In this document: piece by piece, positions 1,240 through 33,403 of the stretch
Position numbering within the stretch: position 1 is the stretch's first letter
Layout of the letters: each line of letters opens with the position of its first letter
Source: a virus
Lineage: Duplodnaviria > Heunggongvirae > Uroviricota > Caudoviricetes
Reading direction: 5' to 3' (one strand)
IMG/VR virus record: IMGVR_UViG_2695420714_000020
DNA: 38,146 nucleotides
Made by a program: the position numbers and the translations under genes
The notes under the pieces: model-generated
Seen by the model: only the letters and a program-made list of their open reading frames with translations
The model's database searches: none
Told to the model about the DNA's origin: nothing

Positions 1240-1431
1240 TTATCGCGAGTTTTTAGTACAGATTTTTTTTGATTTACTAATAGTTCCATCATTGCAAACG
1301 AACTTTCCATCGGAGGTACAGTGAGAGACACCTCCCTTTTTCCCAGAACAAGGATAATTTTTAGCATAGGTAGTTAGTGGGTTTAATAACAAAGAGCATG
1401 ATAAAACCACAAAAAATACCTTACCAAGCAT
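1240..1431 (-). CDS. Small secreted or lipoprotein-like cysteine-containing protein, 63 aa (moron)
   Basis: N-terminal hydrophobic signal-like segment [23 protein letters not shown] followed by a Cys/Lys/Gly-rich mature part. AT-rich, between int and the repressor. Confidence 0.4.
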
Positions 1432-1446: not shown

Positions 1447-2022
1447 TTACCTAACGTACTTAATTGTTAAACTTATAATTTTCCCAATTATTTCAACATC
1501 TTCTATCTTGCACTCGAAGGCTCTGTTTCCACCTTCAACGAAGATTCTTCCACCGGGTAAACGAGTAATGTCGCGGATTGTTATTTCGCCATCAATACTT
1601 ATTACCCATTTACCGTCACGTATATCATCAAATTCTTTATCACAAATAAATTCAGAATTGTTATCTGTGATGACAAAAGGTTTTTTAAACGTAGAGGGTA
1701 GAAATCCCTTATCAAAAATATAAAAACCGTCTTCACGCAAGGCACCATCAGATAATACATATTTAGCAACTTCCATAGTATTTGTATTACCTGAAGTTTG
1801 CTTTGAACCATGTCCGGTTGTGAGCCAATTAAGCGAGGTGCCCGTTTCAAGGGCGCACTGGATTACCCATTCTGCTGGGAATGAGTCACGCATGTAGCGT
1901 GTGGCGAGTGTACTTTTAGAGATTCCTAAATGATCGCACAACGCCTGTCGAGTTTTGAATCCATAAGCTTCTACCATGCGCTCTATAGCGCCTCGTCCGC
2001 CTTTCTCCAAATTCATGGTCAC
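1447..2022 (-). CDS. cI: CI-type immunity repressor (phage 186 CI-like, two-domain)
   Basis: 191 aa, N-terminal helix-turn-helix-like region (QALCDHLGISKSTLATRYMRD), leftward next to int and divergent from the early lytic operon. Size and layout match 186 CI rather than the ~99-aa P2 C. Confidence 0.75.
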   Translation of the reverse strand: MTMNLEKGGRGAIERMVEAYGFKTRQALCDHLGISKSTLATRYMRDSFPAEWVIQCALETGTSLNWLTTGHGSKQTSGNTNTMEVAKYVLSDGALREDGFYIFDKGFLPSTFKKPFVITDNNSEFICDKEFDDIRDGKWVISIDGEITIRDITRLPGGRIFVEGGNRAFECKIEDVEIIGKIISLTIKYVR

Positions 2023-2141: not shown

Positions 2142-2363
2142 ATGAGACCTAACATTTCAATCACTCTTACCACGCCTCATGTGACTATTGAACGCTATAG
2201 CGAGCTGACAGGGCTGTCCATCGATACCATCAATGACATGTTGGCTGACGGACGCCTTATCCGTCACCGTCTGCGCAAAGATAAAAAACGTGAAAAAGTG
2301 ATGATCAACATAGCAGCCATGACCGTTGATGCGCTTTCAGAATGCAATCTAAACCTTAATTAG
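2142..2363 (+). CDS. apl: Apl/Cox-like excisionase and transcriptional regulator (first gene of early lytic operon)
   Basis: 73-aa basic protein at the position of 186 apl / P2 cox; ATG preceded by ACGAGG ribosome-binding site. Confidence 0.55.
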
Positions 2364-2395
2364 TTCGATTCTGAAATACATCAGAGGCATTGACC

Positions 2396-2905
2396 ATGTT
2401 TGATTACCAAGTTTCCAAACATCCACATTTTGATGAAGCCTGTCGTGCATTCGCATTGCGCCACAACCTAGTGCAACTGGCAGAACGTGCAGGCATGAAT
2501 GTGCAGATTCTGCGGAACAAGCTGAACCCAGCTCAACCTCATTTATTAACCGCACCAGAAATCTGGTTGCTTACCGATCTGACTGAAGATTCAACGCTGG
2601 TAGATGGCTTTCTGGCACAGATTCACTGCCTGCCATGTGTACCGATTAATGAGGTGGCAAAAGAGAAACTGCCGCATTACGTCATGAGTGCAACTGCAGA
2701 GATAGGGCGTGTCGCGGCAGGTGCGGTTTCTGGCGATGTAAAAACCAGTGCAGGCCGTCGTGATGCGATCAGCAGCATTAACTCTGTTACACGACTGATG
2801 GCGCTGGCTGCTGTTTCATTGCAGGCCCGTTTACAGGCTAATCCTGCGATGGCGAGTGCAGTTGATACCGTGACTGGCCTCGGTGCTTCATTCGGTTTGC
2901 TGTGA
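2396..2905 (+). CDS. cII: CII-like lysogeny establishment regulator (186 CII-like)
   Basis: About 169 aa from ATG 2396 (the ORF track start at 2390 is TTG). Position directly after apl; size matches 186 CII. Confidence 0.55.
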
Positions 2906-3946: not shown

Positions 3947-4797
3947 GCACCATCCTGAAATGGGCAGGAAATAAAACCGCCATAATGTCCGAACTGAAAA
4001 AGCATCTTCCTGCTGGCCCGCGACTGGTTGAACCTTTCGCGGGTTCCTGTGCAGTGATGATGGAGACGGATTATCCCAGCTATCTTGTTGCGGATATTAA
4101 TCCTGATTTAATCAACCTCTATAAAAAGGTTGCTGCTGATTGTGAGGCGTTTATATCTCGTGCCAGAGCTTTATTTGAGGAAGCAAACAGGGAGGTGGCT
4201 TATTACAACATAAGGCAGGAGTTTAATTACTCCACTGAAATTACTGATTTCATGAAAGCGGTATATTTCCTGTATCTCAATCGTCACGGTTACCGTGGTT
4301 TATGTCGCTATAACAAGAGCGGGCATTTCAACATTCCCTACGGTAATTATAAAAATCCGTATTTCCCTGAAAAAGAAATTCGCGCATTTGCAGAGAAAGC
4401 CCAGCGGGCAACGTTTATCTGCGCCAGCTTTGATGAAACGCTGGCGATGTTGAAGGTGGGGGATGTGGTGTATTGCGATCCGCCTTATGACGGTACGTTT
4501 TCCGGCTATCACACTGATGGTTTCACTGAAGATGATCAGTATCACCTGGCATCCATTCTTGAACATCGGTCATCAGAAGGACATCCGGTCATTGTTTCTA
4601 ACAGTAACACGTCTTTGACCCGGTCCCTTTATCGTAATTTCACTCACCACTACATCAGGGCGAAACGCAGCATCGGCGTTGCAGCGGGGGAGGGAAAATT
4701 TGCAACAGAGATGATTGCCACTAAATCTGCTAATTGGTTTAGTGCCGATTTTAGTAGGGGACGTGACTCTACTGTTATTTTCGGGGTGCAAGTGTGA
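3943..4797 (+). CDS. dam: DNA N6-adenine methyltransferase (Dam/D12 class)
   Basis: Start [11 protein letters not shown] at ATG 3943 (in frame with ORF-track start 3883). Motif I PFAGSCAV and motif IV DPPY present. Confidence 0.85.
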
Positions 4798-4802
4798 AAG
4801 AA

Positions 4803-5624
4803 ATGCACCACGGAATTCATCATTTCCATGGGACGCCTGTCTGGGGAAGTGCTGGCGACGTTCATCGTATTGCGGTGAGCGGAGCTGGCGCTTTCGTCTC
4901 CTATGTACGGCCAGATCAGATTGCGGCGTCCATTCAGCACGCTCAGGTCGTCGGCATTGATAACGGCGCATTTTCTGCATGGGTGCGTGGGCTAAAAATT
5001 AACTGGAGTGATTTTTATAAATGGCTCCTGAACTATTACCACCATCCTAAGGTCGCTTTTTTTGTCATTCCTGATGTTGTGGACGGAGGTGAACGTGACA
5101 ATGATGCCCTGATAAACGAAGTTCCGAAAATGTTCTACGGGAAGGCAACTCCCGTCTGGCATCTGCACGAGTCAATCGATCGGCTTATCGAGCTATGTCG
5201 TGAATGGCCTCGTGTCTGCTTTGGATCTTCTGGTGAATATGCGGCTATCAGAACTGCGCACTGGCATCGTCGTATGCAGGACGCTTTTGAAGCAATTTAT
5301 TGCCGACACAATTTCAAAACAGCTGTTCATGGTTTGCGCATGCTTGACGGTCGTGTGTTGGGAAATTACCCACTGGCGACTGCCGACAGTACAAATCTTG
5401 CCTGCAATGTCCCCAAATTTAATAGCAAATATCCTGAGCTGACGCGGGCTATTCAGGAGGCTGAGTATTCGCGCAATCTGACGGAAAAGGAGCTGAAAGC
5501 TGTCATTCTGAAAAACCGTTGCGCAATTTTAAAAGGTGCAATTGAAGCTGTTCGCCCACCTTCAGTTTCTGATTGGCTGTCGAATGGTTTGCAGCCTTCA
5601 CAGCTCGAACTGGAGATTGCGTAA
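4803..5624 (+). CDS. Conserved hypothetical protein coupled to dam and gpA; possible TGT/DpdA-like fold (unverified)
   Basis: GTG 4794 overlaps the dam stop (GTGA); first ATG at 4803; its stop TAA overlaps the gpA ATG (TAATG). Motifs IDNGAF and [11 protein letters not shown] resemble, from memory, the DSGGF and FDE regions of tRNA-guanine transglycosylases; no zinc-binding Cys cluster. Confidence 0.5.
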
Positions 5625-7996
5625 TGAACTACAGCTATTCCTGGAATGCTGAGAAAAAAGCAATCAATCCTTACGTAGAGACAGAAGAGCAATCTTCAGT
5701 TTCTGCGCTTTCAAACCTGATCGCTCTGTACGCTGCCGATAACGAGCAGGAACAGCTGCGCCGCGAGGCACTGAGTGATCAGGTCTGGGAGCGTTATTTC
5801 TTTAATGAATCCCGTGATCCTGTCCAGCGCGAAATGGAGCAGGATAAGCTCATTAGTCGGGCAAAGCTGGCGCATGAGCAGCAGCGTTTTAATCCAGATA
5901 TGGTCATTCTGGCGGACGTCAATGCCCAGCCTTCCCATATCAGCAAGCCGCTGATGCAACGTATTGAATACTTCAGCAGCCTGGGCAGGCCAAAGGCTTA
6001 TTCCCGCTATTTGCGTGAGACGATTAAGCCATGTCTGGAACGGCTGGAGCATGTACGCGACTGTCAGCTATCCACTTCTTTTCGCTTTATGGCAAGCCAT
6101 GAAGGGCTGGACGGCCTGCTGATCCTGCCTGAAATGAGTCAGGATCAGGTGAAACGCCTGTCCACCCTGGTAGCTGCGCATATGAGCATGTGCCTTGATG
6201 CAGCTTGTGGCGATTTGTATGTCACCGATGACGTTAAGCCAGAAGAAATCCGCAAAACATGGGAAAAGGTGGCAGCGGAAACCCTGCATCTGGATGTCAT
6301 CCCGCCTGCGTTTGAGCAACTCCGCCGGAAAAGAAACCGCCGTAAACCCGTGCCCTATGAACTCATTCCGGGTTCGCTGGCGCGTATGTTGTGCGCTGAC
6401 TGGTGGTACCGGAAATTATGGAAGATGCGTTGCGAATGGCGGGAAGAGCAGTTGCGTGCTGTCTGCCTGGTCAGCAAAAAAGCATCTCCCTATGTCAGCT
6501 ATGAAGCCGTGATGCATAAACGTGAGCAGCGCCGTAAGTCGCTGGAGTTTTTTCGTTCTCATGAACTGGTGAACGAAGACGGCGACACGCTGGACATGGA
6601 GGATGTGGTAAACGCCAGCAGCAGCAACCCTGCGCATCGCCGCAATGAGATGATGGCCTGTGTTAAAGGCCTGGAGCTTATCGCGGAAATGCGCGGTGAC
6701 TGCGCCGTTTTCTACACCATCACCTGTCCGTCACGTTTCCATTCCACGCTAAATAATGGCAGGCCCAACCCAACTTGGACAAATGCGACGGTAAGACAAA
6801 GCAGTGATTATCTGGTCGGCATGTTTGCTGCATTTCGTAAGGCGATGCACAAAGCCGGATTGCGGTGGTATGGCGTGCGGGTGGCTGAGCCGCATCATGA
6901 CGGTACAGTTCACTGGCACCTGTTGTGTTTTATGCGCAAAAAAGACCGCCGCGCCATCACTGCATTACTGCGTAAGTTTGCCATCCGTGAAGACCGCGAG
7001 GAACTGGGCAATAACACTGGGCCGCGCTTTAAGTCTGAGTTGATTAACCCGCGCAAAGGTACGCCAACAAGCTACATCGCGAAATACATCAGTAAGAACA
7101 TTGACGGGCGTGGTCTGGCTGGCGAGATCAGCAAGGAAACGGGGAAATCCCTGCGTGATAATGCTGAATACGTTAATGCCTGGGCGTCTCTGCATCGTGT
7201 TCAGCAATTCCGCTTCTTTGGCATTCCGGGGCGTCAGGCTTACCGTGAACTGCGATTGCTGGCTGGTCAGGCGGCAAGGCAACAGGGGGACAAAAAAGCA
7301 GGTGCGCGGGTACTGGATAACCCGCGCCTTGATGCCATCCTGGCTGCTGCTGATGCTGGTTGTTTTGCTACCTACATCATGAAGCAGGGCGGCGTACTGG
7401 TTCCCCGCAAATATCACCTCATCAGAACCGCTTATGAAATCAACGAAGAGCCGACCGCCTATGGCGATCACGGCATTCGTATTTATGGCATCTGGTCACC
7501 TATTGCAGAGGGCAAGATCTGCACTCATGCCGTGAAGTGGAAAATGGTTCGTAAGGCCGTTGATGTTCAGGAGGCGGCAGCCGACCAGGGCGCTTGCGCC
7601 CCTTGGACTCGTGGCAATAACTGTCCCCTTGCTGAAAATTTGAACCAACAGGAGAAAGATAAATCAGCTGATGGGGACCCCAGAACGGACATTACCAGCA
7701 TGGATGACAAGGAGTTGCACGATTACCTGCACAGTATGAACAAAAAAGAGCGCCGGGAACTGGCTGCAAGGGTACGCCTGGTGAAACCGAAACGGCGTAA
7801 AGACTACAAACAGCGAATTACAGACCATCAGAGACTGCAGCTCGTCTATGAGCTGAAGTCCAGAGGATTTGATGGTAGCGAGAAAGAGGTCGATTTACTC
7901 CTTCGCGGCGGCAGTATTCCGTCAGGAGCAGGCCTGCGTATCTTCTATCGGAACCAGCGTTTGCAAGAAGATGATCAGTGGCGGAACCTGTATTAA
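5624..7996 (+). CDS. A: Replication initiation endonuclease gpA (rolling-circle nickase)
   Basis: 790 aa from ATG 5624; P2 A-like size and position, with central region [11 protein letters not shown]...[12 protein letters not shown]. Start overlaps the stop of the upstream gene. Confidence 0.85.
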
Positions 7997-8090
7997 TTTC
8001 GCGGGTTAACAATTCGTGCTCTTAATAATACCAGGCATATCAGGCTGATGAACGTAAAAAAACGTTTTACATCAGTAAGATTATTATATA

Positions 8091-8106
8091 CTGTAAATAT
8101 AAACAG
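8091..8106. promoter_or_regulatory. LexA (SOS) box CTGTAAATATAAACAG
   Basis: Perfect CTGT-N8-ACAG palindrome 45 bp upstream of the 8151 start, overlapping a candidate -10 (TATACT 8087..8092). Confidence 0.7.
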
Positions 8107-8150
8107 TAGTTATACATACAGTATTGCGTGTGGTGTCATAGGAGGAAAGA

Positions 8151-8338
8151 TGCAGGACTATTTTTTGGAGTCTTTGAAGCTCCAGCGCATTGATTTTTTT
8201 CTTAAGCTTGTAGCGGCTAGTGAGTGTAGTGATGAAGAGAAGGGGCTGGCTCTGCAGTGGGTTTCTGAATTGACTGATGAACTCATGGCAAAAATCAGAA
8301 CCCACGAATACAACCGCTCAATGGATGTCATCAGCTGA
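8151..8338 (+). CDS. SOS-inducible small protein, candidate Tum-like antirepressor (62 aa)
   Basis: Strong ribosome-binding site AGGAGG before ATG 8151; downstream of the LexA box; located after gpA as tum is in 186. The ORF-track N-terminal extension (8048) would cover the promoter, so the shorter start is used. Confidence 0.5.
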
Positions 8339-8348
8339 GGTGACTTTT

Positions 8349-8582
8349 ATGCGCATTGAAATAATGATCGATAAAGAGCAGAAGATTAGCCAGTCTACCC
8401 TGGACGCCCTTGAATCCGAGCTTTACCGCAATCTGCGCCCCCTGTATCCCAAAACGGTAATTCGTATCCGTAAAGGTAGCTCTAACGGTGTGGAACTGAC
8501 CGGACTGCAACTGGATGAAGAAAGAAAACAAGTGATGAAAATTATGCAGAAGGTGTGGGAAGACGACAGCTGGCTGCATTAA
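8349..8582 (+). CDS. DinI-family protein (77 aa)
   Basis: MRIEIMIDKEQ...ALESELYRNL...GLQLDEERKQVMKIMQKVWEDDSWL parallels E. coli DinI (MRIEVTIAK...ETWESADDW) in length and motif order. Second gene of the LexA-boxed operon. Confidence 0.7.
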   Translation: MRIEIMIDKEQKISQSTLDALESELYRNLRPLYPKTVIRIRKGSSNGVELTGLQLDEERKQVMKIMQKVWEDDSWLH

Positions 8583-8591
8583 GAAACGTTG

Positions 8592-8619
8592 CCCCCAAGA
8601 GGATTTATCCTGTTGGGGG
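8592..8619 (+). terminator. GC-rich hairpin after the tum/dinI-like operon (CCCCCAAGAGGAT-TT-ATCCTGTTGGGGG)
   Basis: 12 of 13 bp stem immediately after the stop at 8582; weak T-tract afterwards (GAGTTTGGG). Confidence 0.4.
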
Positions 8620-9070
8620 GAGTTTGGGCAACGAGTGAAATGAGGTGTAAGGTGGGCGGTCATTTTGATAAGTGATCGTCCACTTTGTGTCAGAACCTGA
8701 TGTTTGTTGTACATTCGGACGAATAGGCGGCGTTGTTTGCTTTAAAAATAAAACAGGAACACTTTGAGAAAGTGAACAGGTGTATTTATTTGTTGCTGAT
8801 GAATGAGAGTAACTCTAATTTGGATAATTAGCTTGATAATAGGTCAGACGAAAATAATATTCCAGCACACTTTTGGTCGCAACAGGCATTAGTTAATTTT
8901 AAGTGATAAATTTTTATCCATAAATTAACACTAGTGTGTCATCTAGCGAAACCGAATCGCTTTAACTCATAACTTGAAGTTGAATCAGTGGGGTAGCAGT
9001 AGGCATGCCGGAACTGATAAACTGTGCAGAAGGCTAAACATTCATTCACTCGTGAGATAGTAGCTAAATT

Positions 9071-9937
9071 ATGCAAAGAATTATTCCTGATAAAAATTGG
9101 TGGGAAAAAGAGCGTATTAATCGTAAAGCATCATCAATATGCCCATATGCTAGTTCATACAGATGTCCTCGATACTATCAGAGTGTAGTTTTGCTCTCAA
9201 GCATCAATGTGATAGCTGGTATGGCAACTAGGAAAGAAAAAGAGTTGGGTGAATTTTGGGAAAGAACCACTTTCTCATCTTTATGTGATGAAGAAGTCCC
9301 TACAGTTACTACAAAAGAATATGGCGGCCTTGCATCAGTTAGTAATTTTTGCCCAGAAATATCATTTAGATATTTACACTACTACGCCGATTATATGTGT
9401 AAATATGTTGATGAGATAGATCAGGACACTGGCAGGCGTATTGCGGAAAAAGATAATTTAGAAAATGATTGGAAATATACATGGATGTCAGTCAATCCTA
9501 AATTTTATTTAGATTGCGATGTTTTTGAAAGTGTCAAAAATTTCAATGAAGAATTGGCTAGTGATTACTTAAAAAGATTGCACCCAAATATCGTTCAGCA
9601 AATAGATAGAATGAATAATTGCTTGGATAATAATGATCCGGCAGGTGCACTGCACGCAGCCTCTAATATTTTAGAAACTATGGCTAAGGAAATCACTCAA
9701 AACCCGAATGTGGCAAATGAGTCATTGGGTGGTTTTTTTAAACAGTTCGAAAAAATGTCAAAATTACCTAAGAATCTTATTGATGCTGTTAAAGATATTT
9801 ATGATTTACGCAACAAATTACCTACTGCTGGACACGGAAGCTTGAACAAGCCTGAATTGACTATGGTAGAAGCTATAACTATTGCGGCAATGACAAAGGC
9901 GATTTTAGAAATTGAATATCGAAGCAAAGCCATCTAA
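9071..9937 (+). CDS. Orphan accessory protein, 288 aa, unknown function
   Basis: AT-rich ORF in the accessory region after about 430 bp of AT-rich non-coding DNA containing the palindrome GATAAATTTTTATC. No motif recognised; weak ribosome-binding site. Confidence 0.55.
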   Translation: MQRIIPDKNWWEKERINRKASSICPYASSYRCPRYYQSVVLLSSINVIAGMATRKEKELGEFWERTTFSSLCDEEVPTVTTKEYGGLASVSNFCPEISFRYLHYYADYMCKYVDEIDQDTGRRIAEKDNLENDWKYTWMSVNPKFYLDCDVFESVKNFNEELASDYLKRLHPNIVQQIDRMNNCLDNNDPAGALHAASNILETMAKEITQNPNVANESLGGFFKQFEKMSKLPKNLIDAVKDIYDLRNKLPTAGHGSLNKPELTMVEAITIAAMTKAILEIEYRSKAI

Positions 9938-10186: not shown

Positions 10187-10840
10187 TCATTTCGATGATT
10201 GATCCAGATGTGTATATAACCATTGAAAGAGTTTTCTAATTTTTGTGATAGTATCTTTTAAATAATTTAAGGAGATTATTATATTATTTTCATTGTTTAA
10301 TGAAAGAGTAGGTGTTTTATCAATGATATTTTTTAAGGCTACAGCTGTGCTCATTTTTTTAATGTCTCCATTAGCATGAACTATGCAATTCCTTACTTTG
10401 TTAAACTCTGTCATGAATTGCCACTCTTGTGACAGGCCAAAGTTTATATCCATTAATTTTGTTAAATATCTTTTTGCTTTGTGGATGCCATCACCATTAA
10501 AATCGGTTACTGATATATTGGTGTTTACAATCCTTTGACATATATTGCAATAGTCGTTTAGGTTGTGCTCTAAGCATGAGTATAAAGATACCAAAGCAGA
10601 TTTATTAAAAATATTTGGTTGTATGTTAACTAAGAAATCATATTGCTCTGAATAATAGTCTTCTAAGTAATTAATATAATCGTCAGGAGCATTCTTTTTT
10701 TCATCTTCATATGCTTTTTTTAATTCCGCTAAGTTAACTCTGTTTTGGCCGCCTGCTCCTAGGATATATTTTTCGAAATCATCAATCTGCGCTTCAAGTG
10801 AATATCTTGATAGCTGTGCGAAAAGTTTGTATTTACTCAT
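10187..10840 (-). CDS. Accessory protein, 217 aa, with candidate HEPN motif (RNCIVH)
   Basis: AT-rich ORF convergent with 9071..9937. Residues 150-155 RNCIVH match the R-x4-6-H HEPN signature in its common RNxxxH form. Confidence 0.55.
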   Translation of the reverse strand: MSKYKLFAQLSRYSLEAQIDDFEKYILGAGGQNRVNLAELKKAYEDEKKNAPDDYINYLEDYYSEQYDFLVNIQPNIFNKSALVSLYSCLEHNLNDYCNICQRIVNTNISVTDFNGDGIHKAKRYLTKLMDINFGLSQEWQFMTEFNKVRNCIVHANGDIKKMSTAVALKNIIDKTPTLSLNNENNIIISLNYLKDTITKIRKLFQWLYTHLDQSSK

Positions 10841-11270: not shown

Positions 11271-12920
11271 ATGTTAGTCAAGAAAAATAAAAATTATAGT
11301 TTATATTTTTTAATTACAAATAATCAACAGATATCTGATTCTGGTAATTATATAAAAATAGTCCCATCAAGAAGCGATTGGAATGATTTTGGATATTTGA
11401 GTAGAGTCGAAATATCTATTTTTAATAAAAAAGAGTGTAAGGATATAATTTCACTGAATGGTTATATTGGTTTTTTGAATTCAGAGGAGGAACGAAATGG
11501 AAAAGCAGAACTGATAAGGCGAGTGAAGAAAAAGGAAGAATCTAATTTAAAGGATGAGGGGTTTAATGATTATTTTGTCATGCTTCAGGATATGAATAAT
11601 TATCGAAGACTAGTAAGATTTTTTGGGGTGAATGAATCCAAATATATATTAAATTTCATTAATGATGTTGTTTCTAAGAAAAGTGACGCTAGTGCAGAGA
11701 ATTTGAGGAAAAAAGCAATCTCTTCTGATATCTTTAATAAATCTTTCATTAGAGAGTCTGAGTCGTATTTTACTTTCAAAAATGCAGGAACAGTTCTTTC
11801 CGGTATTCAATATGAGGAGTTGGGTAATTTATCACAGCACATCAAGATTAGCTATTCGAATAAAGTTAATGAAGAAGATGTATCTTATGTTTTTAATTTT
11901 GATCACGAGCATGATTTACCAAAAAGAATTTCCATAATTATAGGCGAGAATGGTGTAGGAAAAAGCCAAACGCTTAGAGAAATCGCATTGGCTGCGATTA
12001 AAGGAAAGGATAATTTGGTGGCTGTAGTTGATTCTAACGGTGTGAGCATTGAAGAACGAATTCAAATTAGTAGGCTCATTGCTTTTTCTCCAACAAATGA
12101 AAGTAAGTGTTCATTTCCAACCGATAAAAGAATAAAATCATTGATATGGTACAAAAGATTGACTTTAAATCGTGAATCAAAATCCAAATTAAACTTGAAT
12201 GATTTAATAGTGCAACTAGCGAGGAGTAACGACGCTATCGGCTATAATCAAAGGTGGAATATATTTGTTGATGCACTGAGTGTTCTAAATAGTAACAACG
12301 ATTTAGTAATCAAATGTAGCGGTGAAAATTCACCATTTGTTAAATTAAATGAGCTTAATTCTCGAGGCGAAGAATCCAGACTATCATTATATTCTGAAAT
12401 TATTCTCTCTGGCGAGCCTTTGAGGCTTGTTGAAAATAAATGTTACCCTTTGAGTAGTGGGGAAATATCGTTTATTAAGTTTTGTGTACAAGTCTGTTTG
12501 TATATTGAGAATGGGACTCTTCTATTAATAGATGAGCCAGAAACACATCTCCATCCTTCATTTATTAATAAATTTATGGCATTGCTTGATAATTTATTAG
12601 AAAAGACAGGCTCTTCAGCTATCATAGCAACGCATTCGGTTTATCTTGTTCGGGAGGTTTTTAAGGAGCAAGTGACAATACTCAGAAGACGAGATGATGG
12701 GGTAATTGTTAGCGAAAAACCGAGATTGAGTACTTTTGGGGCGAATATAGGAAATATCTCATATTTTGTTTTCGGTGAGAGTGAACCAACTCAAATTTTA
12801 AATAAAGTAAAAAATAATATAATTGCAAAGAATATGTCTTGGGATGATGTTGAATCTAAATATAGCGAGGACTTATCACTTAATGTATTAACTGCGTTGA
12901 GAAATGAAATAGGTAATTGA
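11271..12920 (+). CDS. ABC-type ATPase with ~215-aa N-terminal extension (candidate defense ATPase, PtuA-like)
   Basis: 549 aa. Walker A GENGVGKS (aa 225-232), ABC signature LSSGE (394-398), Walker B LLLIDEPE (417-424), H-loop ATHS (453-456). N-terminal 215 aa have no recognisable motif. AT-rich. Confidence 0.7.
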   Translation: MLVKKNKNYSLYFLITNNQQISDSGNYIKIVPSRSDWNDFGYLSRVEISIFNKKECKDIISLNGYIGFLNSEEERNGKAELIRRVKKKEESNLKDEGFNDYFVMLQDMNNYRRLVRFFGVNESKYILNFINDVVSKKSDASAENLRKKAISSDIFNKSFIRESESYFTFKNAGTVLSGIQYEELGNLSQHIKISYSNKVNEEDVSYVFNFDHEHDLPKRISIIIGENGVGKSQTLREIALAAIKGKDNLVAVVDSNGVSIEERIQISRLIAFSPTNESKCSFPTDKRIKSLIWYKRLTLNRESKSKLNLNDLIVQLARSNDAIGYNQRWNIFVDALSVLNSNNDLVIKCSGENSPFVKLNELNSRGEESRLSLYSEIILSGEPLRLVENKCYPLSSGEISFIKFCVQVCLYIENGTLLLIDEPETHLHPSFINKFMALLDNLLEKTGSSAIIATHSVYLVREVFKEQVTILRRRDDGVIVSEKPRLSTFGANIGNISYFVFGESEPTQILNKVKNNIIAKNMSWDDVESKYSEDLSLNVLTALRNEIGN

Positions 12921-12921
12921 A

Positions 12922-13785
12922 ATGAATAAATTAAAAAGACCTGTTTTTAAAGATTATTCTGCATTTAAAAAACTATCTGCAAATAAGAGATTAAAACATC
13001 ATTCTGTTCTGAATGGACAGGATACATTTATACTTAATGCATATAGATCGTACATAAAGAATAAAGGATATCTTAATGTCAATTCTTGTGGCGTATTGAG
13101 TAACAATATTGCTGAAGCTTTGAAATATTATTATAACAATCCCGCAAAGTGTTTATCTATAATTGATGATATAAGAGCAGCTAATTCTAACTCTCTATGT
13201 CCAATGTGTGGTTCAATGCATAGCGGGACTTTGGATCATGTTTTACCCAAGGAAAACTATCCAGAATTTTCTTTATTCACTAAGAATTTGGTTCCTGCTT
13301 GCAAATGTAATACTTTCAAAAGTACTACTATAGCTAATTCTGCAGGCCATCGGATGCTGCATCCATATTTTGATAATATATTAAAACAAAGATTAATATG
13401 TGCTAATTTTTCTAAATTAGGGCGAACACCTACAATTGATGTAAAAATCATAATTGACCCAATGTCACCAGAATATAACAATGTTAAGTATCATCTTGAT
13501 AATGTTGTTATCAAGAATAATATTAAGGGGTATTTGTCTGAACAATGGGAGTCGTTTTACTTATATCCTGAGCTTGTTATTAGAGGACTGAATAAGAGTC
13601 TTTCTACTTATAGCGATGTATATGAGTTGTTGACTCGCGAGTTGTTGCTGTTGGATGAAAAACATAAAGGTAAAAATAATTGGAATTCGGTTTTTGTAGC
13701 TGGGTTAATTCGACCTGATGTGATTAGGTGGATACTCTGTGAATTACATTTAGGTAACAGAAGTCCAGACGGTCGTCTCATATGA
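12922..13785 (+). CDS. HNH-motif nuclease (candidate effector, PtuB-like)
   Basis: 287 aa. CPMCGSMHSGTLDHVLPKENYPEFSLFTKNLVPACKCN (CxxC...DH...N...CxC, aa 93-130). ATG is 1 nt after the ATPase stop, so the two genes are coupled. Confidence 0.65.
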   Translation: MNKLKRPVFKDYSAFKKLSANKRLKHHSVLNGQDTFILNAYRSYIKNKGYLNVNSCGVLSNNIAEALKYYYNNPAKCLSIIDDIRAANSNSLCPMCGSMHSGTLDHVLPKENYPEFSLFTKNLVPACKCNTFKSTTIANSAGHRMLHPYFDNILKQRLICANFSKLGRTPTIDVKIIIDPMSPEYNNVKYHLDNVVIKNNIKGYLSEQWESFYLYPELVIRGLNKSLSTYSDVYELLTRELLLLDEKHKGKNNWNSVFVAGLIRPDVIRWILCELHLGNRSPDGRLI

Positions 13786-22201: not shown

Positions 22202-22646
22202 ACTGCAGAAAGTGGACGACTGGCTGAGTGCCTTGCTGGCGAATCTGGAACCAGCCGCCAGAAGCCGCATGATGCGCCAGCTGGCGCAGGAACTGCGCCG
22301 GACACAGCAGCAGAATATCAGGATGCAGCGCAACCCTGACGGCAGCAGCTATGAACCGCGACGGGTAACAGCACGAAGTAAAAAAGGGCGCATCAAACGT
22401 CAGATGTTTGCAAAGCTGCGCACCACAAAATACCTGAAAACCGCCGCCAGCGCGGATTCTGCCAGCGTACAGTTTGAAGGTAAGGTGCAGCGCATTGCCC
22501 GCGTTCATCATTACGGCCTGCGCGATCGCGTCAGTCCAAAGGGGGGAGTCATTAAGTATCCATCCCGAAAATTGCTGGGTTTAAATGAACATACTGAAAA
22601 TGAAGTAAGAGATTTACTTTTAAAGTATTTTTTGATGAAAAATTAG
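22194..22646 (+). CDS. S: Tail completion protein gpS
   Basis: 150 aa (GTG start overlapping the R stop); KRQMFAKLRTTKYLKT...HHYGLRDRVS parallels P2 S. Confidence 0.85.
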   Translation: MAELQKVDDWLSALLANLEPAARSRMMRQLAQELRRTQQQNIRMQRNPDGSSYEPRRVTARSKKGRIKRQMFAKLRTTKYLKTAASADSASVQFEGKVQRIARVHHYGLRDRVSPKGGVIKYPSRKLLGLNEHTENEVRDLLLKYFLMKN

Positions 22647-22651
22647 AATGT

Positions 22652-23221
22652 TTACGCACTTAATAAACTTAAATAACTTTTTATGCTTTGGCAAAAAGGG
22701 AAAAGGTCTATTTTAATTTTCCAGTTTTTTTTGTTTTGAACCCCAGAAGCAATAATAGAACCATCCCAATATTTTATTCCATTTTTGCCGGTCTTTTTTG
22801 TTAACTCAAAACTTAATGCGTGAATAATTTTATTGCAGCATTCGCGTATAGAACCTTTAACATGACCATCTATAACAAAAAGTATATTTTCATGTTCTTC
22901 AAATGCTTCTTTCTCAGGTGAGTAATCTGGGTTCCACTCATGTTCACTAGTGTCTTGGAGAATTCGTAGTTTTGTACAAAGGCTAATAAGATTGTTGCTA
23001 ATGGTATATTCCAACCATCCGTTGTACGATAACTCCTCCATTTCAAATTCAGTTACTATAGAATCATCATATACTTTCTGTGTGGAATATATACGCTGTA
23101 AATAAAATTCAGATGAACAGCATAATTGCTCAATTATTCTTGCGTGTTCTTCTATAGCGTAATAATCAATTGGATGGCTCATTCTTTTACCTTTCTTCGA
23201 TTGGAATTGTATTTGTGTCAT
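22652..23221 (-). CDS. Moron: orphan 189-aa protein on the opposite strand between gpS and gpV
   Basis: AT-rich ORF antiparallel to the late operon, filling the S-V junction that is contiguous in P2. Start codon sits inside the PV activator dyad; no motif recognised. Confidence 0.55.
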   Translation of the reverse strand: MTQIQFQSKKGKRMSHPIDYYAIEEHARIIEQLCCSSEFYLQRIYSTQKVYDDSIVTEFEMEELSYNGWLEYTISNNLISLCTKLRILQDTSEHEWNPDYSPEKEAFEEHENILFVIDGHVKGSIRECCNKIIHALSFELTKKTGKNGIKYWDGSIIASGVQNKKNWKIKIDLFPFCQSIKSYLSLLSA

Positions 23222-23231
23222 TTACCACACA
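23214..23231. promoter_or_regulatory. Late-promoter activator dyad TGT-N12-ACA upstream of gpV
   Basis: TGTGTCATTTACCACACA centred about 55 bp upstream of the V start, as for Ogr-dependent P2 late promoters. Confidence 0.5.
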
Positions 23232-23277
23232 AGGACGTATTGATGCCATAGATTCAAGGTCCGTGCAACCTAACCCT

Positions 23278-30321: not shown

Positions 30322-33300
30322 ATGAGTGATAATAACCTGCGCCTGCAGGTCATTCTTAATGCGGTTGACAAACTCACCCGCCCATTCCGTGCTGCACAGG
30401 CCAGTTCGAAAGAGCTGGCTGGCGCAATCAGAAACTCCCGTGACGCATTAAAGCAACTCAATCAGGCGGGTAACAGCTTGGAAAAATTTCGCAAGCTGCA
30501 GGCCGATAACAAGAAGTTAGGCGACAGGCTGAACTATGCCAGACAGAAGGCAAATTTGCTTAGTTCTGAGCTGGAAGCGATGGAACAACCATCACAACGG
30601 CACCTTGTGGCTTTAGGTCGGCAAACGCTGGCAGTCCAACGCCTGGAAGAACAACAAAAATATTTGCAGAAGCAAACGGCGCTTGTGCGTGCAGAACTGT
30701 ACCGGACGGGAATTTCTGCGAAAGATGATGCGGGAGCAACTGCCCGTTTAGCCCGTGAAACATCACGTTATAACCAGGAATTGTCGAAACAGGAGGCGCG
30801 GCTGAAGCGACTGGGTGAAGCTCAGCGCAGGATGAATGCGGCGCGTGCCAGTTATGCCCGTTCGCTGGAGGTGCGCGATCGTATTGCAGGAGCCGGAGCC
30901 ACTACCACGGCTGCAGGGCTGGCAATGGGGACGCCAGTGATGGCGGCAGTAAAAAGCTATACCAGCATGGAAGATGCCATGAAAGGTGTGGCAAAGCAGG
31001 TCAATGGTCTGCGTGACGATAATGGAAACCGTACTGCACGTTTTTATGAAATGCAGGATGCCATCAAGGCTGCCAGCGAACAGTTGCCGATGGAAAACGG
31101 TGCGGTGGACTTCGCTGCACTGGTTGAAGGTGGTGCGCGCATGAACGTCGCAGACCCTGACGACAGCTGGGAAGACCAGAAACGTGACCTGCTGGCCTTC
31201 GCCAGTACGGCAGCAAAGGCGGCAACAGCCTTTGAGCTGCCAGCGGATGAACTGTCAGAAAGTCTGGGGAAAATCGCCCAGCTCTACAAAATACCTACCC
31301 GCAATATTGAACAGCTCGGCGATGCGCTGAACTATCTGGATGATAACGCCATGTCGAAAGGGGCGGACATCATTGATGTGATGCAACGTCTGGGCGGTGT
31401 GGCTGACCGTCTGGATTATAGTAAAGCGGCGGCACTGGGTTCCACCTTTCTGACACTGGGCGCTGCGCCGGAGGTTGCAGCCAGTGCAGCAAACGCGATG
31501 GTGCGTGAATTGTCCATTGCCACCATGCAAAGCAAGAGTTTCTTTGAAGGGATGAATCTGCTGAAACTCAATCCTGAAGTGATTGAAAAGCAGATGACGA
31601 AGGATGCGATGGGAACTATCCAGCGTGTGCTGGAGAAGGTGAACGCACTGCCGCAGGACAAGCGTCTGTCTGCCATGACCATGTTGTTTGGTAAAGAGTT
31701 TGGCGATGACGCGGCGAAACTGGCAAACAACCTGCCGGAACTACAGCGCCAGCTAAAACTGACAGCGGGCAATGATGCGCTCGGTTCCATGCAGAAAGAA
31801 TCCGACATCAACAAGGACTCACTTTCTGCTCAGTGGTTGCTGGTTAAAACCGGAGCGCAGAATACCTTCAGCAGCCTGGGAGAAACGCTGTGCCAGCCGC
31901 TGATGGATATTCTGTACACGGTGAAAAGCGTTACGGGAGCGTTGCGTCGCTGGGTGGAAGCTAACCCGGAACTGACGGGCACACTGATGAAAGTAGCCGC
32001 TATTGTGGCTGCGGTTACCGTAGGCCTCGGCACCTTGGCTGTGGCGCTGGCTGCAGTGCTGGGGCCGCTGGCAGTCATCCGTCTGGGATTCTCTGTGCTG
32101 GGCATCAAAACGTTACCTTCCATTACGGCAGCAGTAACACGAACTAGCAGCGCGTTGTCCTGGCTGGCTGGCTGGCGCTCCACTGGCAGTGCTGCGACGC
32201 GGGCTTGCTTCATCGGGTAACGCAGCGGGTTTACTTACTGCGCCGTTGTCGTCTTTGCGCCGTACGGCATCACTGACGGGAAATGTCCTGAAAACTGTAG
32301 CAGGTGCGCCGGTTGCACTATTGCGGTCTGGATTATCCGCTTTACATGCTGTTGCTGTGATGTTTATGAATCCTCTGGCGGTACTGCGCGGTGGACTGGC
32401 TGCCGTAGGCGCGGTGCTTCGTGTGCTTGCATCTGGTCCGCTGGCGATGCTGCGCGTTGCCCTGTATGCCATATCTGGTCTGTTAGGTGCTCTGCTCAGT
32501 CCGATAGGTCTTGTGGTTACTGCACTGGCGGGCGTGGCGCTGGTTGTCTGGAAATACTGGCAACCCATCACCGCATTTCTCGGTGGCGTGGTGGAAGGAT
32601 TCAAAGCGGCGGCAGGTCCCATCAGTGCTGCATTCGAACCACTTAAGCCTGTGTTTCAGTGGATTGGCGACAAAGTACAGGCGCTGTGGGGCTGGTTTAC
32701 TGATCTGCTGACGCCCGTTAAGTCGACCTCTGCCGAACTGCAGAGTGCAGCGGCAATGGGGCGGCGATTCGGGGAGGCACTGGCGGAAGGGCTGAATATG
32801 GTCATGCATCCGCTGGACTCCCTGAAATCCGGCGTTTCCTGGTTGCTGGAGAAGCTCGGCATTGTCAGTAAAGAGGCCGCAAAGGCAAAACTGCCGGAAA
32901 GCGTGACGCGTCAGCAACCTGCGACGGTGAATGCAGACGGTAAAGTGATGATGCCATCGGGTGGTTTTCCATCATGGGGATATGGCTTTGCGGGGATGTA
33001 TGACAGCGGCGGGTATATCCCGCGCGGGCAGTTTGGCATCGTCGGTGAAAACGGGCCGGAAATTGTTAACGGCCCGGCAAATGTGACCAGCCGGAGAAAT
33101 ACAGCTGCACTGGCTGCCGTTGTTGCCGGAATGATGGGCGTTGCTGCCGCGCCTGCAGAGCTTCCACCGTTGCATCCTTTGGCACTTCCCGCGAAAGGCG
33201 GCGAAGCGATGGTGAGTCGTGCAGCCACTGTGCCGCCCGTTCACCGGATTGAGGCACCGACGCAGATCATCATTCAGACGCAGCTAGGACAAAGTGCGCA

Positions 33301-33403
33301 GGATATTGCGCGGGAGGTGGCACGCCAGCTTGATGAACGTGAACGCAGGCTGAAGGCAAAAGCCAGGAGTAACTACAGCGATCAGGGGGGATACGACGCA
33401 TGA
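30322..33403 (+). CDS. T: Tail tape measure protein gpT, reading frame interrupted (two ORFs: 30322..32220 and 32189..33403)
   Basis: Ala/Leu-rich tape-measure-like sequence split across frames 1 and 2 with an 83-bp overlap; the (TGGC)4 tract at 32161..32176 lies in the overlap. Position between E' and U. Confidence 0.8.
32161..32176 (+). repeat. (TGGC)4 tetranucleotide repeat at the tape measure frameshift point
   Basis: Removing one TGGC unit joins the two ORFs into a continuous reading ...SALSWLAGAPLAVLRRGLASS... Confidence 0.8.

What the first reader, a model, noticed from the sequence alone, without database searches (positions are those of the whole stretch)
8067..8582. LexA-boxed Tum/DinI-like module paired with a 186-type CI: SOS induction via antirepressor
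A perfect LexA box CTGTAAATATAAACAG (8091..8106) overlaps the candidate -10 of a two-gene operon: a 62-aa protein and a DinI-family protein. In coliphage 186, induction works through the LexA-controlled Tum antirepressor, not RecA-mediated CI cleavage. A 186-like immunity region here together with this cassette implies the same indirect SOS circuit. The arrangement differs from the single 146-aa Tum I recall for 186: here the candidate antirepressor and the DinI-like part are separate ORFs.
Basis: partly seen in the sequence, partly recalled or inferred. Interest (0 to 1): 0.45.

Follow-up and report, generated by a model that had tools for sequence, protein, structure and literature searches.

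The report
LexA-controlled split Tum antirepressor cassette
This is the DNA-damage switch of a P2/186-family prophage of E. coli: a small antirepressor gene and a DinI-like gene behind a LexA operator; it is real, but nearly identical to a cassette already shown by published genetics to trigger prophage induction, so it is ordinary.

Summary
TACTGTAAATATAAACAGTA (8089..8108) matches the LexA consensus at 18/20, which no shuffle of the window reaches. It overlaps a conserved promoter and precedes a 62-aa ORF (8150..8338) and a DinI-family ORF (8349..8582), directly downstream of replication gene A. The prophage carries a 186-type CI.

The interpretation also holds, and it is already known.
- A family profile links the 62-aa protein to the N-terminal half of 186 Tum (E 2e-10), and PHROG cross-hits agree.
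- The DinI ORF is 41% identical to the Tum C-terminal half.
- PSP3 annotates the same split as tumA/tumB, and the literature describes it for Fels-2.
- The E. coli HS prophage DuoHS has TumA 61/62, DinI 77/77 and CI 180/189 identical, with the same LexA box 1. There, deleting exactly this 62-aa ORF, or using lexA(Ind-), abolishes mitomycin C induction (Nat Microbiol 2025).

Additions from this work:
- The operator is a colicin-type double overlapping SOS box.
- TumA stands without a DinI gene in 29 of 49 related loci.
- TumA and CI types reassort freely between prophages.
- The tape-measure gene in this window carries a 4-bp frameshift.
- Databases still label TumA "hypothetical".

The parts
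8056..8071 (+). A-tract (8056-8062) and -35 hexamer TTTACA (8066-8071) of the tum promoter
   Evidence: The A-run and TTTACA are conserved 17 nt upstream of TACTGT in most related loci, while the spacer sequence varies. The layout is analogous to the annotated p95 of phage 186. No transcription start-site data were available.
8089..8108 (+). LexA box 1, TACTGTAAATATAAACAGTA (core 8091-8106). Its first six bases, TACTGT, are the candidate -10.
   Evidence: It matches the consensus at 18/20, is unique in the window, and 0 of 100 shuffles produce such a site. It is conserved in 45 of 49 related loci. The 186 record annotates the -10 of p95 as the first six bases of its LexA site.
8104..8123 (+). 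LexA box 2, CAGTAGTTATACATACAGTA (core 8106-8121). It overlaps box 1, shares G8106 and has a weak left half.
   Evidence: It matches the consensus at 14/20. It is 19/20 identical to the second box of the double SOS operator upstream of colicin E1 genes on ColE1-like plasmids. About 20 loci of the group with at least 80% TumA identity have it in the same +15 register. Phage 186, PSP3 and the 40-50% identity group lack it.
8150..8338 (+). tumA-like gene: 62-aa antirepressor, homologue of the N-terminal half of 186 Tum
   Evidence: A family HMM hits 186 Tum residues 6-48 with E 2e-10. It matches phrog_698, phrog_8554 and phrog_1993, the same families hit by the 186 Tum N-half; PSP3 TumA matches phrog_1993. 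It is 61/62 identical to the DuoHS gene whose deletion abolishes induction. AlphaFold2 predicts a helical hairpin with pLDDT 86.8.
8349..8582 (+). tumB/DinI-like gene, 77 aa, homologue of the C-terminal half of 186 Tum and of E. coli DinI
   Evidence: Pfam DinI E 6.6e-23. It is 41% identical to 186 Tum residues 71-145. It matches PDB 1GHH DinI at 2.7e-06. It is 100% identical to the DuoHS protein. It starts 10 nt after the tumA stop codon, with GAGGTG as ribosome-binding site.
8592..8619 (+). G+C-rich hairpin after the DinI-like gene, a probable leaky terminator that marks the end of the conserved cassette
   Evidence: Fold energy is -24.2 kcal/mol, z = -3.24 against shuffles. It has only a weak T-run, so the terminator scan did not call it. 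Its position is analogous to the partial terminator t95a of 186. Similarity to Fels-2 and the Klebsiella phages ends at about 8580-8592.
1447..2022 (-). cI: 186-type immunity repressor, the presumed target of TumA
   Evidence: Pfam Phage_CI_repr and Phage_CI_C. Peptidase_S24 scores only 16.7 bits against a cut-off of 23.3. It matches PDB 2FJR and 2FKD, the 186 CI structures. It is 95% identical to DuoHS CI, 38% to Fels-2 CI and 32% to 186 CI.
5573..7996 (+). Replication gene A (context): the cassette lies directly downstream of it, as in 186, PSP3 and Fels-2
   Evidence: Pfam Phage_GPA E 3.2e-128. The synteny is seen.

Best explanation
The region is the SOS induction module of a Felsduovirus-type (P2/186-family) prophage. 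The prophage sits next to ybjL in an E. coli chromosome.

In a lysogen, LexA occupies an operator made of a strong box (8089-8108) and an overlapping weaker box (8104-8123). The operator covers the -10 region and the start of the tum promoter, so tumA and the DinI-like gene stay silent.

DNA damage activates RecA and LexA cleaves itself. The two genes are then transcribed as one short operon that ends at the hairpin 8592-8619.

TumA is a 62-aa helical hairpin homologous to the N-terminal half of 186 Tum. It binds the 186-type CI repressor and stops it from binding its operators. CI is not cleaved. The early lytic promoter is thereby derepressed.

The DinI-like protein is an accessory. It most likely binds RecA filaments and tunes the strength or duration of the SOS signal. 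It is not required for antirepression.

Shown: the sequence features, the homologies, conservation of the operator, and (in a 95-100% identical prophage) the requirement for tumA and for cleavable LexA. Inferred: LexA binding to this DNA, double occupancy of the operator, direct TumA-CI contact in this phage, and the role of the DinI-like protein.
For: The LexA 20-mer matches the consensus at 18/20 and none is expected by chance. A box with at least 7/8 core matches is conserved in 45 of 49 related loci, together with a conserved -35 and spacing.

Box 2 is 19/20 identical to the second box of ColE1-type colicin operators. Such operators are reported to bind two LexA dimers (PMC2994835).

The TumA family HMM hits the 186 Tum N-half at E 2e-10, the top hit among 389 ORFs. 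PHROG cross-hits link the window protein, 186 Tum and PSP3 TumA.

The DinI ORF scores Pfam 81 bits, is 41% identical to the Tum C-half, and matches PDB 1GHH.

PSP3 annotates tumA as 'UV induction of prophage' and tumB as DinI-like. Lemire 2011 describes split tum in Fels-2 and PSP3, with the upstream gene as the antirepressor.

In DuoHS, delta-tum and lexA(Ind-) abolish mitomycin C-induced lysis. The deletion primers match window 8130-8152 and 8336-8358 exactly. DuoHS TumA, DinI and CI are 98%, 100% and 95% identical to the window's, and box 1 with its upstream promoter is identical.

The 186 mechanism (LexA-regulated p95, Tum sequesters CI) is described in PMC7708051 and in the annotation of NC_001317.

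TumA occurs without a DinI gene in 29 of 49 loci.
Against: Nothing was measured on this exact sequence.

Pairwise BLASTP finds no similarity between the 62-aa protein and 186 Tum or PSP3 TumA. The homology is visible only with profiles.

The left half of box 2 is weaker here (CAGTAG) than in DuoHS and Fels-2 (CAGTGG), so double occupancy may be reduced.

The DuoHS experiment shows that tumA is necessary. It does not show that tumA is sufficient or that TumA contacts CI.

The tape-measure gene of this prophage is frameshifted, so induction here may not yield infectious phage.

The function of the DinI-like protein is untested. Deleting the dinI homologues in Gifsy prophages had no clear effect on induction.
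Confidence: 0.9

Rival explanations
1. Antirepression needs both proteins. TumA and the DinI-like protein act together as a split two-part Tum, and neither is enough alone.
For: In 186 the two parts form one 146-aa polypeptide, and that fused form is widespread. The two ORFs here are 10 nt apart and co-conserved in 20 of 49 loci. The DuoHS deletion tests necessity of tumA only.
Against: TumA homologues with a conserved LexA box stand without any DinI gene in 29 of 49 loci, and in several others the DinI gene is truncated. In PSP3 the upstream gene is reported to carry the antirepressor activity. Phage 186 also makes the DinI-like part separately from an internal GTG start, annotated as a modulator of SOS induction. 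Deleting the dinI homologues in Gifsy prophages had no significant effect on induction.
Confidence: 0.07
2. The cassette is only an SOS-modulating accessory (moron), namely a DinI paralogue with a small partner. Induction instead proceeds by RecA-stimulated self-cleavage of CI, as in lambda.
For: The CI C-terminal region gives a sub-threshold Peptidase_S24 hit of 16.7 bits. RefSeq and PHROGs attach no induction function to the 62-aa protein.
Against: The S24 hit is below Pfam's cut-off of 23.3. The domain is Phage_CI_C, the 186 CI C-terminal fold. In DuoHS, whose CI is 95% identical, deleting tumA alone abolishes induction although RecA and LexA remain intact. The 62-aa protein is homologous to the antirepressor half of 186 Tum.
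Confidence: 0.02
3. The circuit is intact, but in this host it belongs to a defective prophage. SOS expression of TumA would start a lytic programme that lyses the cell or expresses cargo genes without producing infectious virions.
For: A 4-bp CTGG repeat expansion at about 32160-32163 frameshifts the tape-measure gene relative to DuoHS and creates a stop at 32220. The closest complete E. coli genomes, including those whose cargo region is 100% identical, lack the 4 bases.
Against: The insertion lies in a short tandem repeat and could be a sequencing or assembly error. All other late genes align with DuoHS at about 96% identity without disruption. This explanation modifies the outcome of induction but not what the cassette is.
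Confidence: 0.3

Closest known systems
tum of E. coli HS prophage DuoHS (ECHS_RS04495) with its DinI-like neighbour ECHS_RS04500
   Same: It occupies the same chromosomal site next to ybjL, and the prophage is about 96% identical overall. TumA is 61/62, DinI 77/77 and CI 180/189 identical, and box 1 and its upstream promoter are identical. Delta-tum and lexA(Ind-) abolish mitomycin C induction.
   Different: Box 2 differs by one base (CAGTGG in DuoHS, CAGTAG here). The cargo downstream of the DinI-like gene differs. The window has an extra ORF between dam and gene A and a frameshifted tape-measure gene.
Fels-2 STM2728 / STM2726.1 (Salmonella LT2)
   Same: The cassette DNA is 97% identical, TumA is 98% identical, and the double LexA operator is the same. 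Fels-2 is reported to be regulated by an antirepressor mechanism and to have a split tum.
   Different: Fels-2 CI is only 38% identical to the window's CI. The N-terminal domain is about 69% identical and the C-terminal domain about 28%.
PSP3 tumA / tumB
   Same: It has the same split architecture at the same place, downstream of gene A and behind a LexA box that matches the consensus at 19/20. tumA is annotated 'UV induction of prophage' and tumB as DinI-like.
   Different: PSP3 TumA belongs to a different subfamily, phrog_1993. It gives no BLASTP hit to the window protein and only a marginal HMM hit. It has a single LexA box and a longer CI.
Tum of coliphage 186 (p95-tum-orf97 SOS operon)
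   Same: It has a LexA box overlapping the -10 and lies downstream of gene A. Its N-half is homologous to TumA and its C-half to the DinI ORF. It has a 186-type CI, and it acts by antirepression without cleavage.
   Different: It is one fused 146-aa protein with internal starts. It has a single LexA box. Sequence identity is low. orf97 follows it, where the window carries defence cargo.
Gifsy-1/-2/-3 dinI-gfoA/gftA operons (Salmonella)
   Same: These are LexA-boxed operons that pair a DinI homologue with a small antirepressor, which inactivates an uncleaved repressor.
   Different: They are lambdoid phages with the reverse gene order (dinI first). Their antirepressors and repressors belong to other protein families.
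Double overlapping SOS boxes of colicin operons (ColE1 type)
   Same: Two LexA boxes lie in a 15-bp register and share one base. The window has ACTGTAAATATAAACAGTAGTTATACATACAGTA and the colicin E1 promoter has GCTGTATATAAAACCAGTAGTTATATATACAGTA. These operators are described as binding two LexA dimers and giving very tight repression.
   Different: The colicin operator controls a toxin gene on a plasmid. Here box 1 is the stronger box. LexA occupancy of box 2 in the phage has not been tested.

Membership tests
186 Tum-type SOS antirepressor module | LexA operator overlapping the promoter of the antirepressor gene | tested here: met
   An 18/20 consensus site overlaps the candidate -10 and none is expected by chance. 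It is conserved in 45 of 49 relatives. The layout matches that annotated for 186 p95.
186 Tum-type SOS antirepressor module | LexA protein actually binds the site and represses transcription | not testable with these tools
   Support is indirect only: lexA(Ind-) blocks induction of DuoHS, whose box 1 is identical.
186 Tum-type SOS antirepressor module | Protein homologous to the N-terminal (antirepressor) half of Tum | tested here: met
   The family HMM hits 186 Tum residues 6-48 at E 2e-10. phrog_698, phrog_8554 and phrog_1993 are shared with 186 Tum. Pairwise BLASTP is negative.
186 Tum-type SOS antirepressor module | DinI-like part homologous to the C-terminal half of Tum | tested here: met
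   It is 41% identical over 75 residues, E 3e-24. Both fall in phrog_189.
186 Tum-type SOS antirepressor module | Single fused 146-aa polypeptide | tested here: not met
   There are two ORFs in different frames separated by a stop codon and 10 nt. The cassette therefore belongs to the split tumA/tumB subtype of PSP3 and Fels-2.
186 Tum-type SOS antirepressor module | Location downstream of replication gene A in a P2/186-like genome that encodes a 186-type CI | tested here: met
   Gene A is at 5573-7996. CI has Phage_CI_repr and Phage_CI_C. Cox/Apl-like and CII genes are present. The synteny matches 186, PSP3 and Fels-2.
186 Tum-type SOS antirepressor module | Protein binds CI and reversibly prevents operator binding, and is required for SOS induction | not testable with these tools
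   The requirement was shown genetically for the 98% identical DuoHS orthologue paired with a 95% identical CI. Binding to CI has not been shown for this subfamily.
DinI family (PF06183) | Sequence match above the curated threshold over the whole domain | tested here: met
   It scores 81.3 bits against a cut-off of 24.2, covering profile positions 1-63 of 63. It aligns with E. coli DinI (PDB 1GHH) over residues 1-75, including the acidic C-terminal helix WEDDSW.
DinI family (PF06183) | Binds RecA filaments and modulates co-protease activity | not testable with these tools
   This is inferred from family membership only.
Colicin-type double overlapping SOS operator | Two 16-bp LexA cores in tandem that share one base (15-bp register) | tested here: met
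   The cores are 8091-8106 and 8106-8121. Box 2 is 19/20 identical to the ColE1-type second box. It recurs in about 20 related loci.
Colicin-type double overlapping SOS operator | Co-operative binding of two LexA dimers | not testable with these tools
   The left half of box 2 is poor (GTAG against CTGT). Occupancy would depend on co-operativity with box 1, as is reported for colicins.

The most novel reading that the evidence does not exclude
TumA-type antirepressors may be generalists rather than immunity-specific partners. Near-identical TumA proteins (98-100%) sit in prophages whose CI repressors share only 38% identity: DuoHS-type and Fels-2-type, both reported to be induced through LexA and tum. 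Conversely, prophages with the same CI (N-terminal domain 100%, C-terminal domain 90% identical) carry TumA proteins only 42% identical. Across 37 loci, TumA identity tracks CI identity only weakly (Mantel r 0.22 for the N-terminal domain and 0.17 for the C-terminal domain). That is weaker than its correlation with the adjacent gene A (r 0.30). If TumA recognises a surface conserved across the whole 186-type CI family, one damaged cell's TumA could cross-induce heteroimmune P2-like prophages. A candidate surface is the invariant C-x-(L/M)-(E/D)-T-G...W-L..G segment of the N-terminal domain. The colicin-style double operator would then set a high SOS threshold for this shared trigger.
Probability: 0.4. 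Interest if true: 0.4.

Novelty: already known. Interest (0 to 1): 0.15.

Why it matters
The cassette decides when a very common family of E. coli, Klebsiella and Salmonella prophages leaves lysogeny. It is present in 1125 of 5426 complete E. coli genomes. The mechanism was established for 186 and Fels-2/PSP3, and in 2025 for the near-identical DuoHS, so this window adds no new biology.

The practical value is for annotation. RefSeq, PHROGs and Pfam still call the 62-aa antirepressor "hypothetical", "unknown function" or "levan regulatory protein". Automated pipelines therefore miss the induction switch of these prophages.

Two observations are modest but testable leads on cross-induction between co-resident prophages and on the SOS threshold for induction: the free reassortment of TumA and CI types, and the colicin-like double operator.

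Tried and rejected
- Pairwise BLASTP of the 62-aa protein against 186 Tum and PSP3 TumA gave no alignment. I did not take this as absence of homology, because profiles and PHROG cross-hits show it.
- phmmer of the 62-aa protein against 1.84 billion representatives found only 66 clusters, all short and none fused to DinI. It did not reach 186 Tum.
- Pfam and PADLOC gave no hit for the 62-aa protein.
- Foldseek of the AlphaFold2 model (a helical hairpin) against the PDB found only generic helical hairpins, none with E <= 0.001. This was uninformative.
- The 'terminator-like' hairpin that the scan called at 8327-8344, between the two ORFs, is no more stable than shuffles (z -1.16). I rejected it as a terminator or attenuator.
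- The promoter scan did not call the tum promoter, because TACTGT is a poor -10. The promoter assignment rests on conservation and on the 186 annotation.
- The first attempt to fetch related loci with the 28-sequence alignment failed for lack of a conserved stretch. A 10-sequence alignment worked.
- Bunny et al. 2002 (PMC151935) is not held. Its content is cited only through Lemire et al. 2011.
- I looked for strict TumA-CI co-variation, which would mark immunity-specific pairs. The correlation is weak.

Full report
**What is in the sequence**

The window is an E. coli chromosomal segment that carries a complete-looking P2/186-family prophage. The gene order is as follows.
- Integrase lies at the left end.
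- A 186-type CI lies at 1447..2022(-). It has Pfam Phage_CI_repr and Phage_CI_C.
- A Cox/Apl-like gene is at 2142..2363 and cII is at 2390..2905.
- Fil-, DUF5347-, DUF2732- and DksA/TraR-like genes follow, then dam.
- Replication gene A is at 5573..7996.
- The flagged region comes next, then variable cargo, then the late genes through D and ogr, and finally the host genes ybjL and ybjM.

The flagged region reads, in order:
- an A-tract at 8056-8062;
- TTTACA at 8066-8071, followed by a 17-nt spacer;
- TACTGTAAATATAAACAGTA at 8089-8108;
- an overlapping CAGTAGTTATACATACAGTA at 8104-8123;
- AGGAGG at 8140-8145;
- a 62-aa ORF at 8150-8338;
- 10 nt containing GAGGTG;
- a 77-aa ORF at 8349-8582;
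- a strong hairpin at 8592-8619.

**Is the observation more than chance?**

The bare core CTGT-N8-ACAG is not significant on its own. About 0.54 matches are expected per window, and 44 of 100 shuffles contain one. The 20-mer matches the E. coli LexA consensus at 18/20. It is the only site in 38 kb within three mismatches, and no shuffle produced one.

Conservation is the stronger argument. A scan of one genome per species found 49 loci that encode relatives of the 62-aa protein, at 100% down to 40% identity, in Escherichia, Citrobacter, Enterobacter, Klebsiella, Pantoea, Erwinia, Serratia and others.
- 36 loci have a perfect core, and 45 have at least 7/8 core matches, 13-49 nt upstream of the start codon.
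- Of the four exceptions, one contig is cut, one site is degenerate, and two upstream regions have been replaced.
- The -35 TTTACA and the 17-nt spacing are kept while the spacer sequence itself diverges freely.

That is the pattern of a functional promoter-operator. The record for phage 186 annotates the -10 of p95 as the first six bases (TACTGT) of its LexA site, which is the same arrangement.

**What the two proteins are**

The downstream ORF is a DinI-family protein.
- It scores 81.3 bits on Pfam against a cut-off of 24.2.
- It aligns with E. coli DinI (PDB 1GHH) over its full length.
- It is 41% identical to residues 71-145 of 186 Tum.

The 62-aa protein has no Pfam or PADLOC match. BLASTP finds no alignment to 186 Tum or PSP3 TumA. 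Its family is small: 66 clusters among 1.84 billion representatives, nearly all 50-100 aa.

Profile methods do show homology.
- An HMM built from 31 diverse members hits residues 6-48 of 186 Tum with E 2e-10. This is the top hit among all 389 six-frame ORFs of the right arms of 186 and PSP3. It aligns the motif E..L.RI.L.aRL.a...C...dKelAl.W..EL.
- Independently, the window protein matches phrog_698, phrog_8554 and phrog_1993.
- The N-half of 186 Tum matches phrog_1993 (1e-22), phrog_8554 and phrog_698 (2.4e-05).
- PSP3 TumA matches phrog_1993 at 2.7e-32.

The three proteins therefore form one superfamily. AlphaFold2 predicts a two-helix hairpin (residues 2-23 and 28-61, pLDDT 86.8). That fold gives no informative structural match.

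**What is already known**

The PSP3 GenBank record names the two genes tumA ('similar to 5' end 186 tum; UV induction of prophage') and tumB ('similar to dinI and 3' end of 186 tum').

Lemire et al. 2011 make three relevant statements (PMC3121763).
- 186 Tum looks like a fusion of an antirepressor and DinI.
[quoted passage not shown] This is cited to Bunny et al. 2002.

The window's cassette is 97% identical in DNA to that of Fels-2 and to dozens of Klebsiella, Escherichia and Salmonella P2-like phages.

The most decisive evidence comes from the E. coli HS prophage DuoHS.
- It sits at the same chromosomal site next to ybjL and is about 96% identical to the window over most of its length.
- Its TumA is 61/62 identical, its DinI-like protein 77/77 and its CI 180/189.
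- Its LexA box 1 and upstream promoter are identical to the window's.
- Ortiz de Ora et al. (Nat Microbiol 2025, PMC12055606) show that a markerless delta-tum strain and a lexA(Ind-) strain both fail to lyse or form viral foci after mitomycin C.
- Their deletion primers (NHR24 and NHR28, supplement) match window 8130-8152 and 8336-8358 exactly. They fuse the ATG at 8150 to the TGA at 8336-8338, so 'tum' in that study is precisely the 62-aa ORF and the DinI-like gene is left intact.

**Mechanism**

The best-supported account is the 186 paradigm. In 186, LexA represses p95. SOS relieves that repression, and Tum sequesters CI reversibly instead of CI being cleaved. The window applies this paradigm to a split cassette.
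- CI here has the 186-type C-terminal domain (PDB 2FKD and 2FJR are its homologues).
- It gives only a sub-threshold S24 peptidase signal.
- Deleting tumA alone blocks induction in DuoHS. Both facts argue against a lambda-like cleavage route.

The DinI-like gene appears to be an optional accessory.
- Only 20 of the 49 related loci have it, and in several of those it is truncated.
- The other 29 keep the LexA box and TumA alone.
- Phage 186 also makes the DinI-like part separately from an internal GTG start, annotated as a modulator of SOS induction.
- Deleting the dinI homologues in Gifsy prophages had no clear effect on induction.

(i) The operator is double.
- A second box (core 8106-8121) overlaps box 1 by one base in a 15-bp register.
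- ColE1-like plasmids carry GCTGTATATAAAACCAGTAGTTATATATACAGTA upstream of the colicin E1 ORF. The window has ACTGTAAATATAAACAGTAGTTATACATACAGTA. The second boxes are 19/20 identical.
- Such overlapping boxes are reported to bind two LexA dimers and to give very tight repression with no basal expression (PMC2994835).
- About 20 loci of the group with at least 80% TumA identity share the double box. 186, PSP3 and the 40-50% group have a single box close to the start codon.
- In this window the left half of box 2 carries an A where DuoHS and Fels-2 have G.

(ii) TumA and CI types are not tightly paired.
- Fels-2 TumA is 98% identical to the window's, but its CI is only 38% identical. The N-terminal domain is about 69% identical and the C-terminal domain about 28%.
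- L041 has the same CI as L010 and L011 (N-terminal domain 100%, C-terminal domain 90%) but a TumA only 42% identical.
- L023 combines a 186-like CI N-terminal domain with an 86% identical TumA.
- Mantel correlations of TumA identity are 0.22 with the CI N-terminal domain and 0.17 with the C-terminal domain. The correlation with the adjacent gene A is 0.30.
- This suggests, but does not prove, that TumA recognises a conserved feature of the CI family and could act across immunity types. Lemire et al. showed such cross-action for Gifsy antirepressors.

(iii) The cassette is very common and under-annotated.
- It is present in 1125 of 5426 complete E. coli genomes.
- It is labelled 'hypothetical protein' plus 'DinI-like family protein' there.
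- PHROGs lists it as 'unknown function'.
- Some records call it 'levan regulatory protein'.

**Verdict**

The interest score is low. The residual novelty lies in the double operator and in the reassortment of TumA and CI types, both of which remain untested inferences.

Noticed in passing
window 30322..33403 (insertion at about 32160-32163): The tape-measure gene T is split into two ORFs (30322..32220 and 32189..33403). The cause is a 4-bp CTGG repeat expansion (CTGGCTGGCTGG against CTGGCTGG in E. coli HS DuoHS), which gives a frameshift and an early stop. The closest complete E. coli genomes lack the 4 bases, including two whose cargo region is 100% identical. The prophage may be tail-defective, or this may be a sequencing error.
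   Followed up: partly
window 11271..13785: A two-gene candidate defence system lies in the variable region between the DinI-like gene and portal gene Q. The first gene encodes a 549-aa AAA ATPase (PADLOC PDC-M01A 2.4e-55, with PtuA-like hits; Pfam AAA_21). The second encodes a 287-aa partner (PDC-M01B 8.2e-34), which RefSeq names HNH endonuclease. The pair is Septu-like. The same pair occurs separately from the neighbouring cargo in other E. coli genomes.
   Followed up: partly
window 9071..9937 (+) and 10187..10840 (-): Two further cargo ORFs have only weak family signals. The first gives Abi_C at 18.8 bits, below the cut-off. The second gives a HEPN-like PADLOC hit (RTasHEPN, 1.1e-05). They occupy the position that orf97, an infection-blocking gene, holds in the SOS operon of 186. 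A promoter-like site lies at 8833-8860.
   Followed up: no
window 4719..5698 (ORF 4794..5624) and 22543..23264 (ORF 22652..23221, minus strand): Two segments are absent from the otherwise roughly 96% identical DuoHS prophage. One holds a 276-aa ORF between dam and gene A. The other holds a 189-aa ORF among the lysis and tail genes. Neither has a Pfam match.
   Followed up: no
related proteins P0147, P0149, P0152, P0155, P0164, P0169, P0172, P0177, P0180, P0181 (alignment A3): Distant TumA-family members carry a conserved glycine-rich C-terminal tail, roughly K-N-P-Q-x-G-G...G-x-(L/F)-Q. The window protein lacks it. Its meaning is unknown.
   Followed up: no
loci L008, L018, L020, L032: In these relatives the DinI-like gene downstream of tumA is split or truncated, while tumA and its LexA box are intact. 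This fits the DinI-like gene being dispensable.
   Followed up: no
loci L010 and L042 (Citrobacter pasteurii CIP 55.13); L021 and L050 (Lelliottia wanjuensis V104_15): Single genomes carry two P2-like prophages with different TumA classes, about 90% and about 48% identical to the window's. These are natural settings in which to test cross-induction.
   Followed up: no
window 1240..1431 (-): A small 63-aa ORF lies between int and cI. Its hydrophobic N-terminus ([16 protein letters not shown]...) looks like a signal peptide. DuoHS annotates a hypothetical gene at the same place. It has no Pfam match.
   Followed up: no
window 8327..8344: A hairpin spans the tumA stop codon and the ribosome-binding site of the DinI-like gene. 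The scan called it terminator-like, but it is no more stable than shuffled sequence (z -1.16). It could still couple translation of the two genes.
   Followed up: partly
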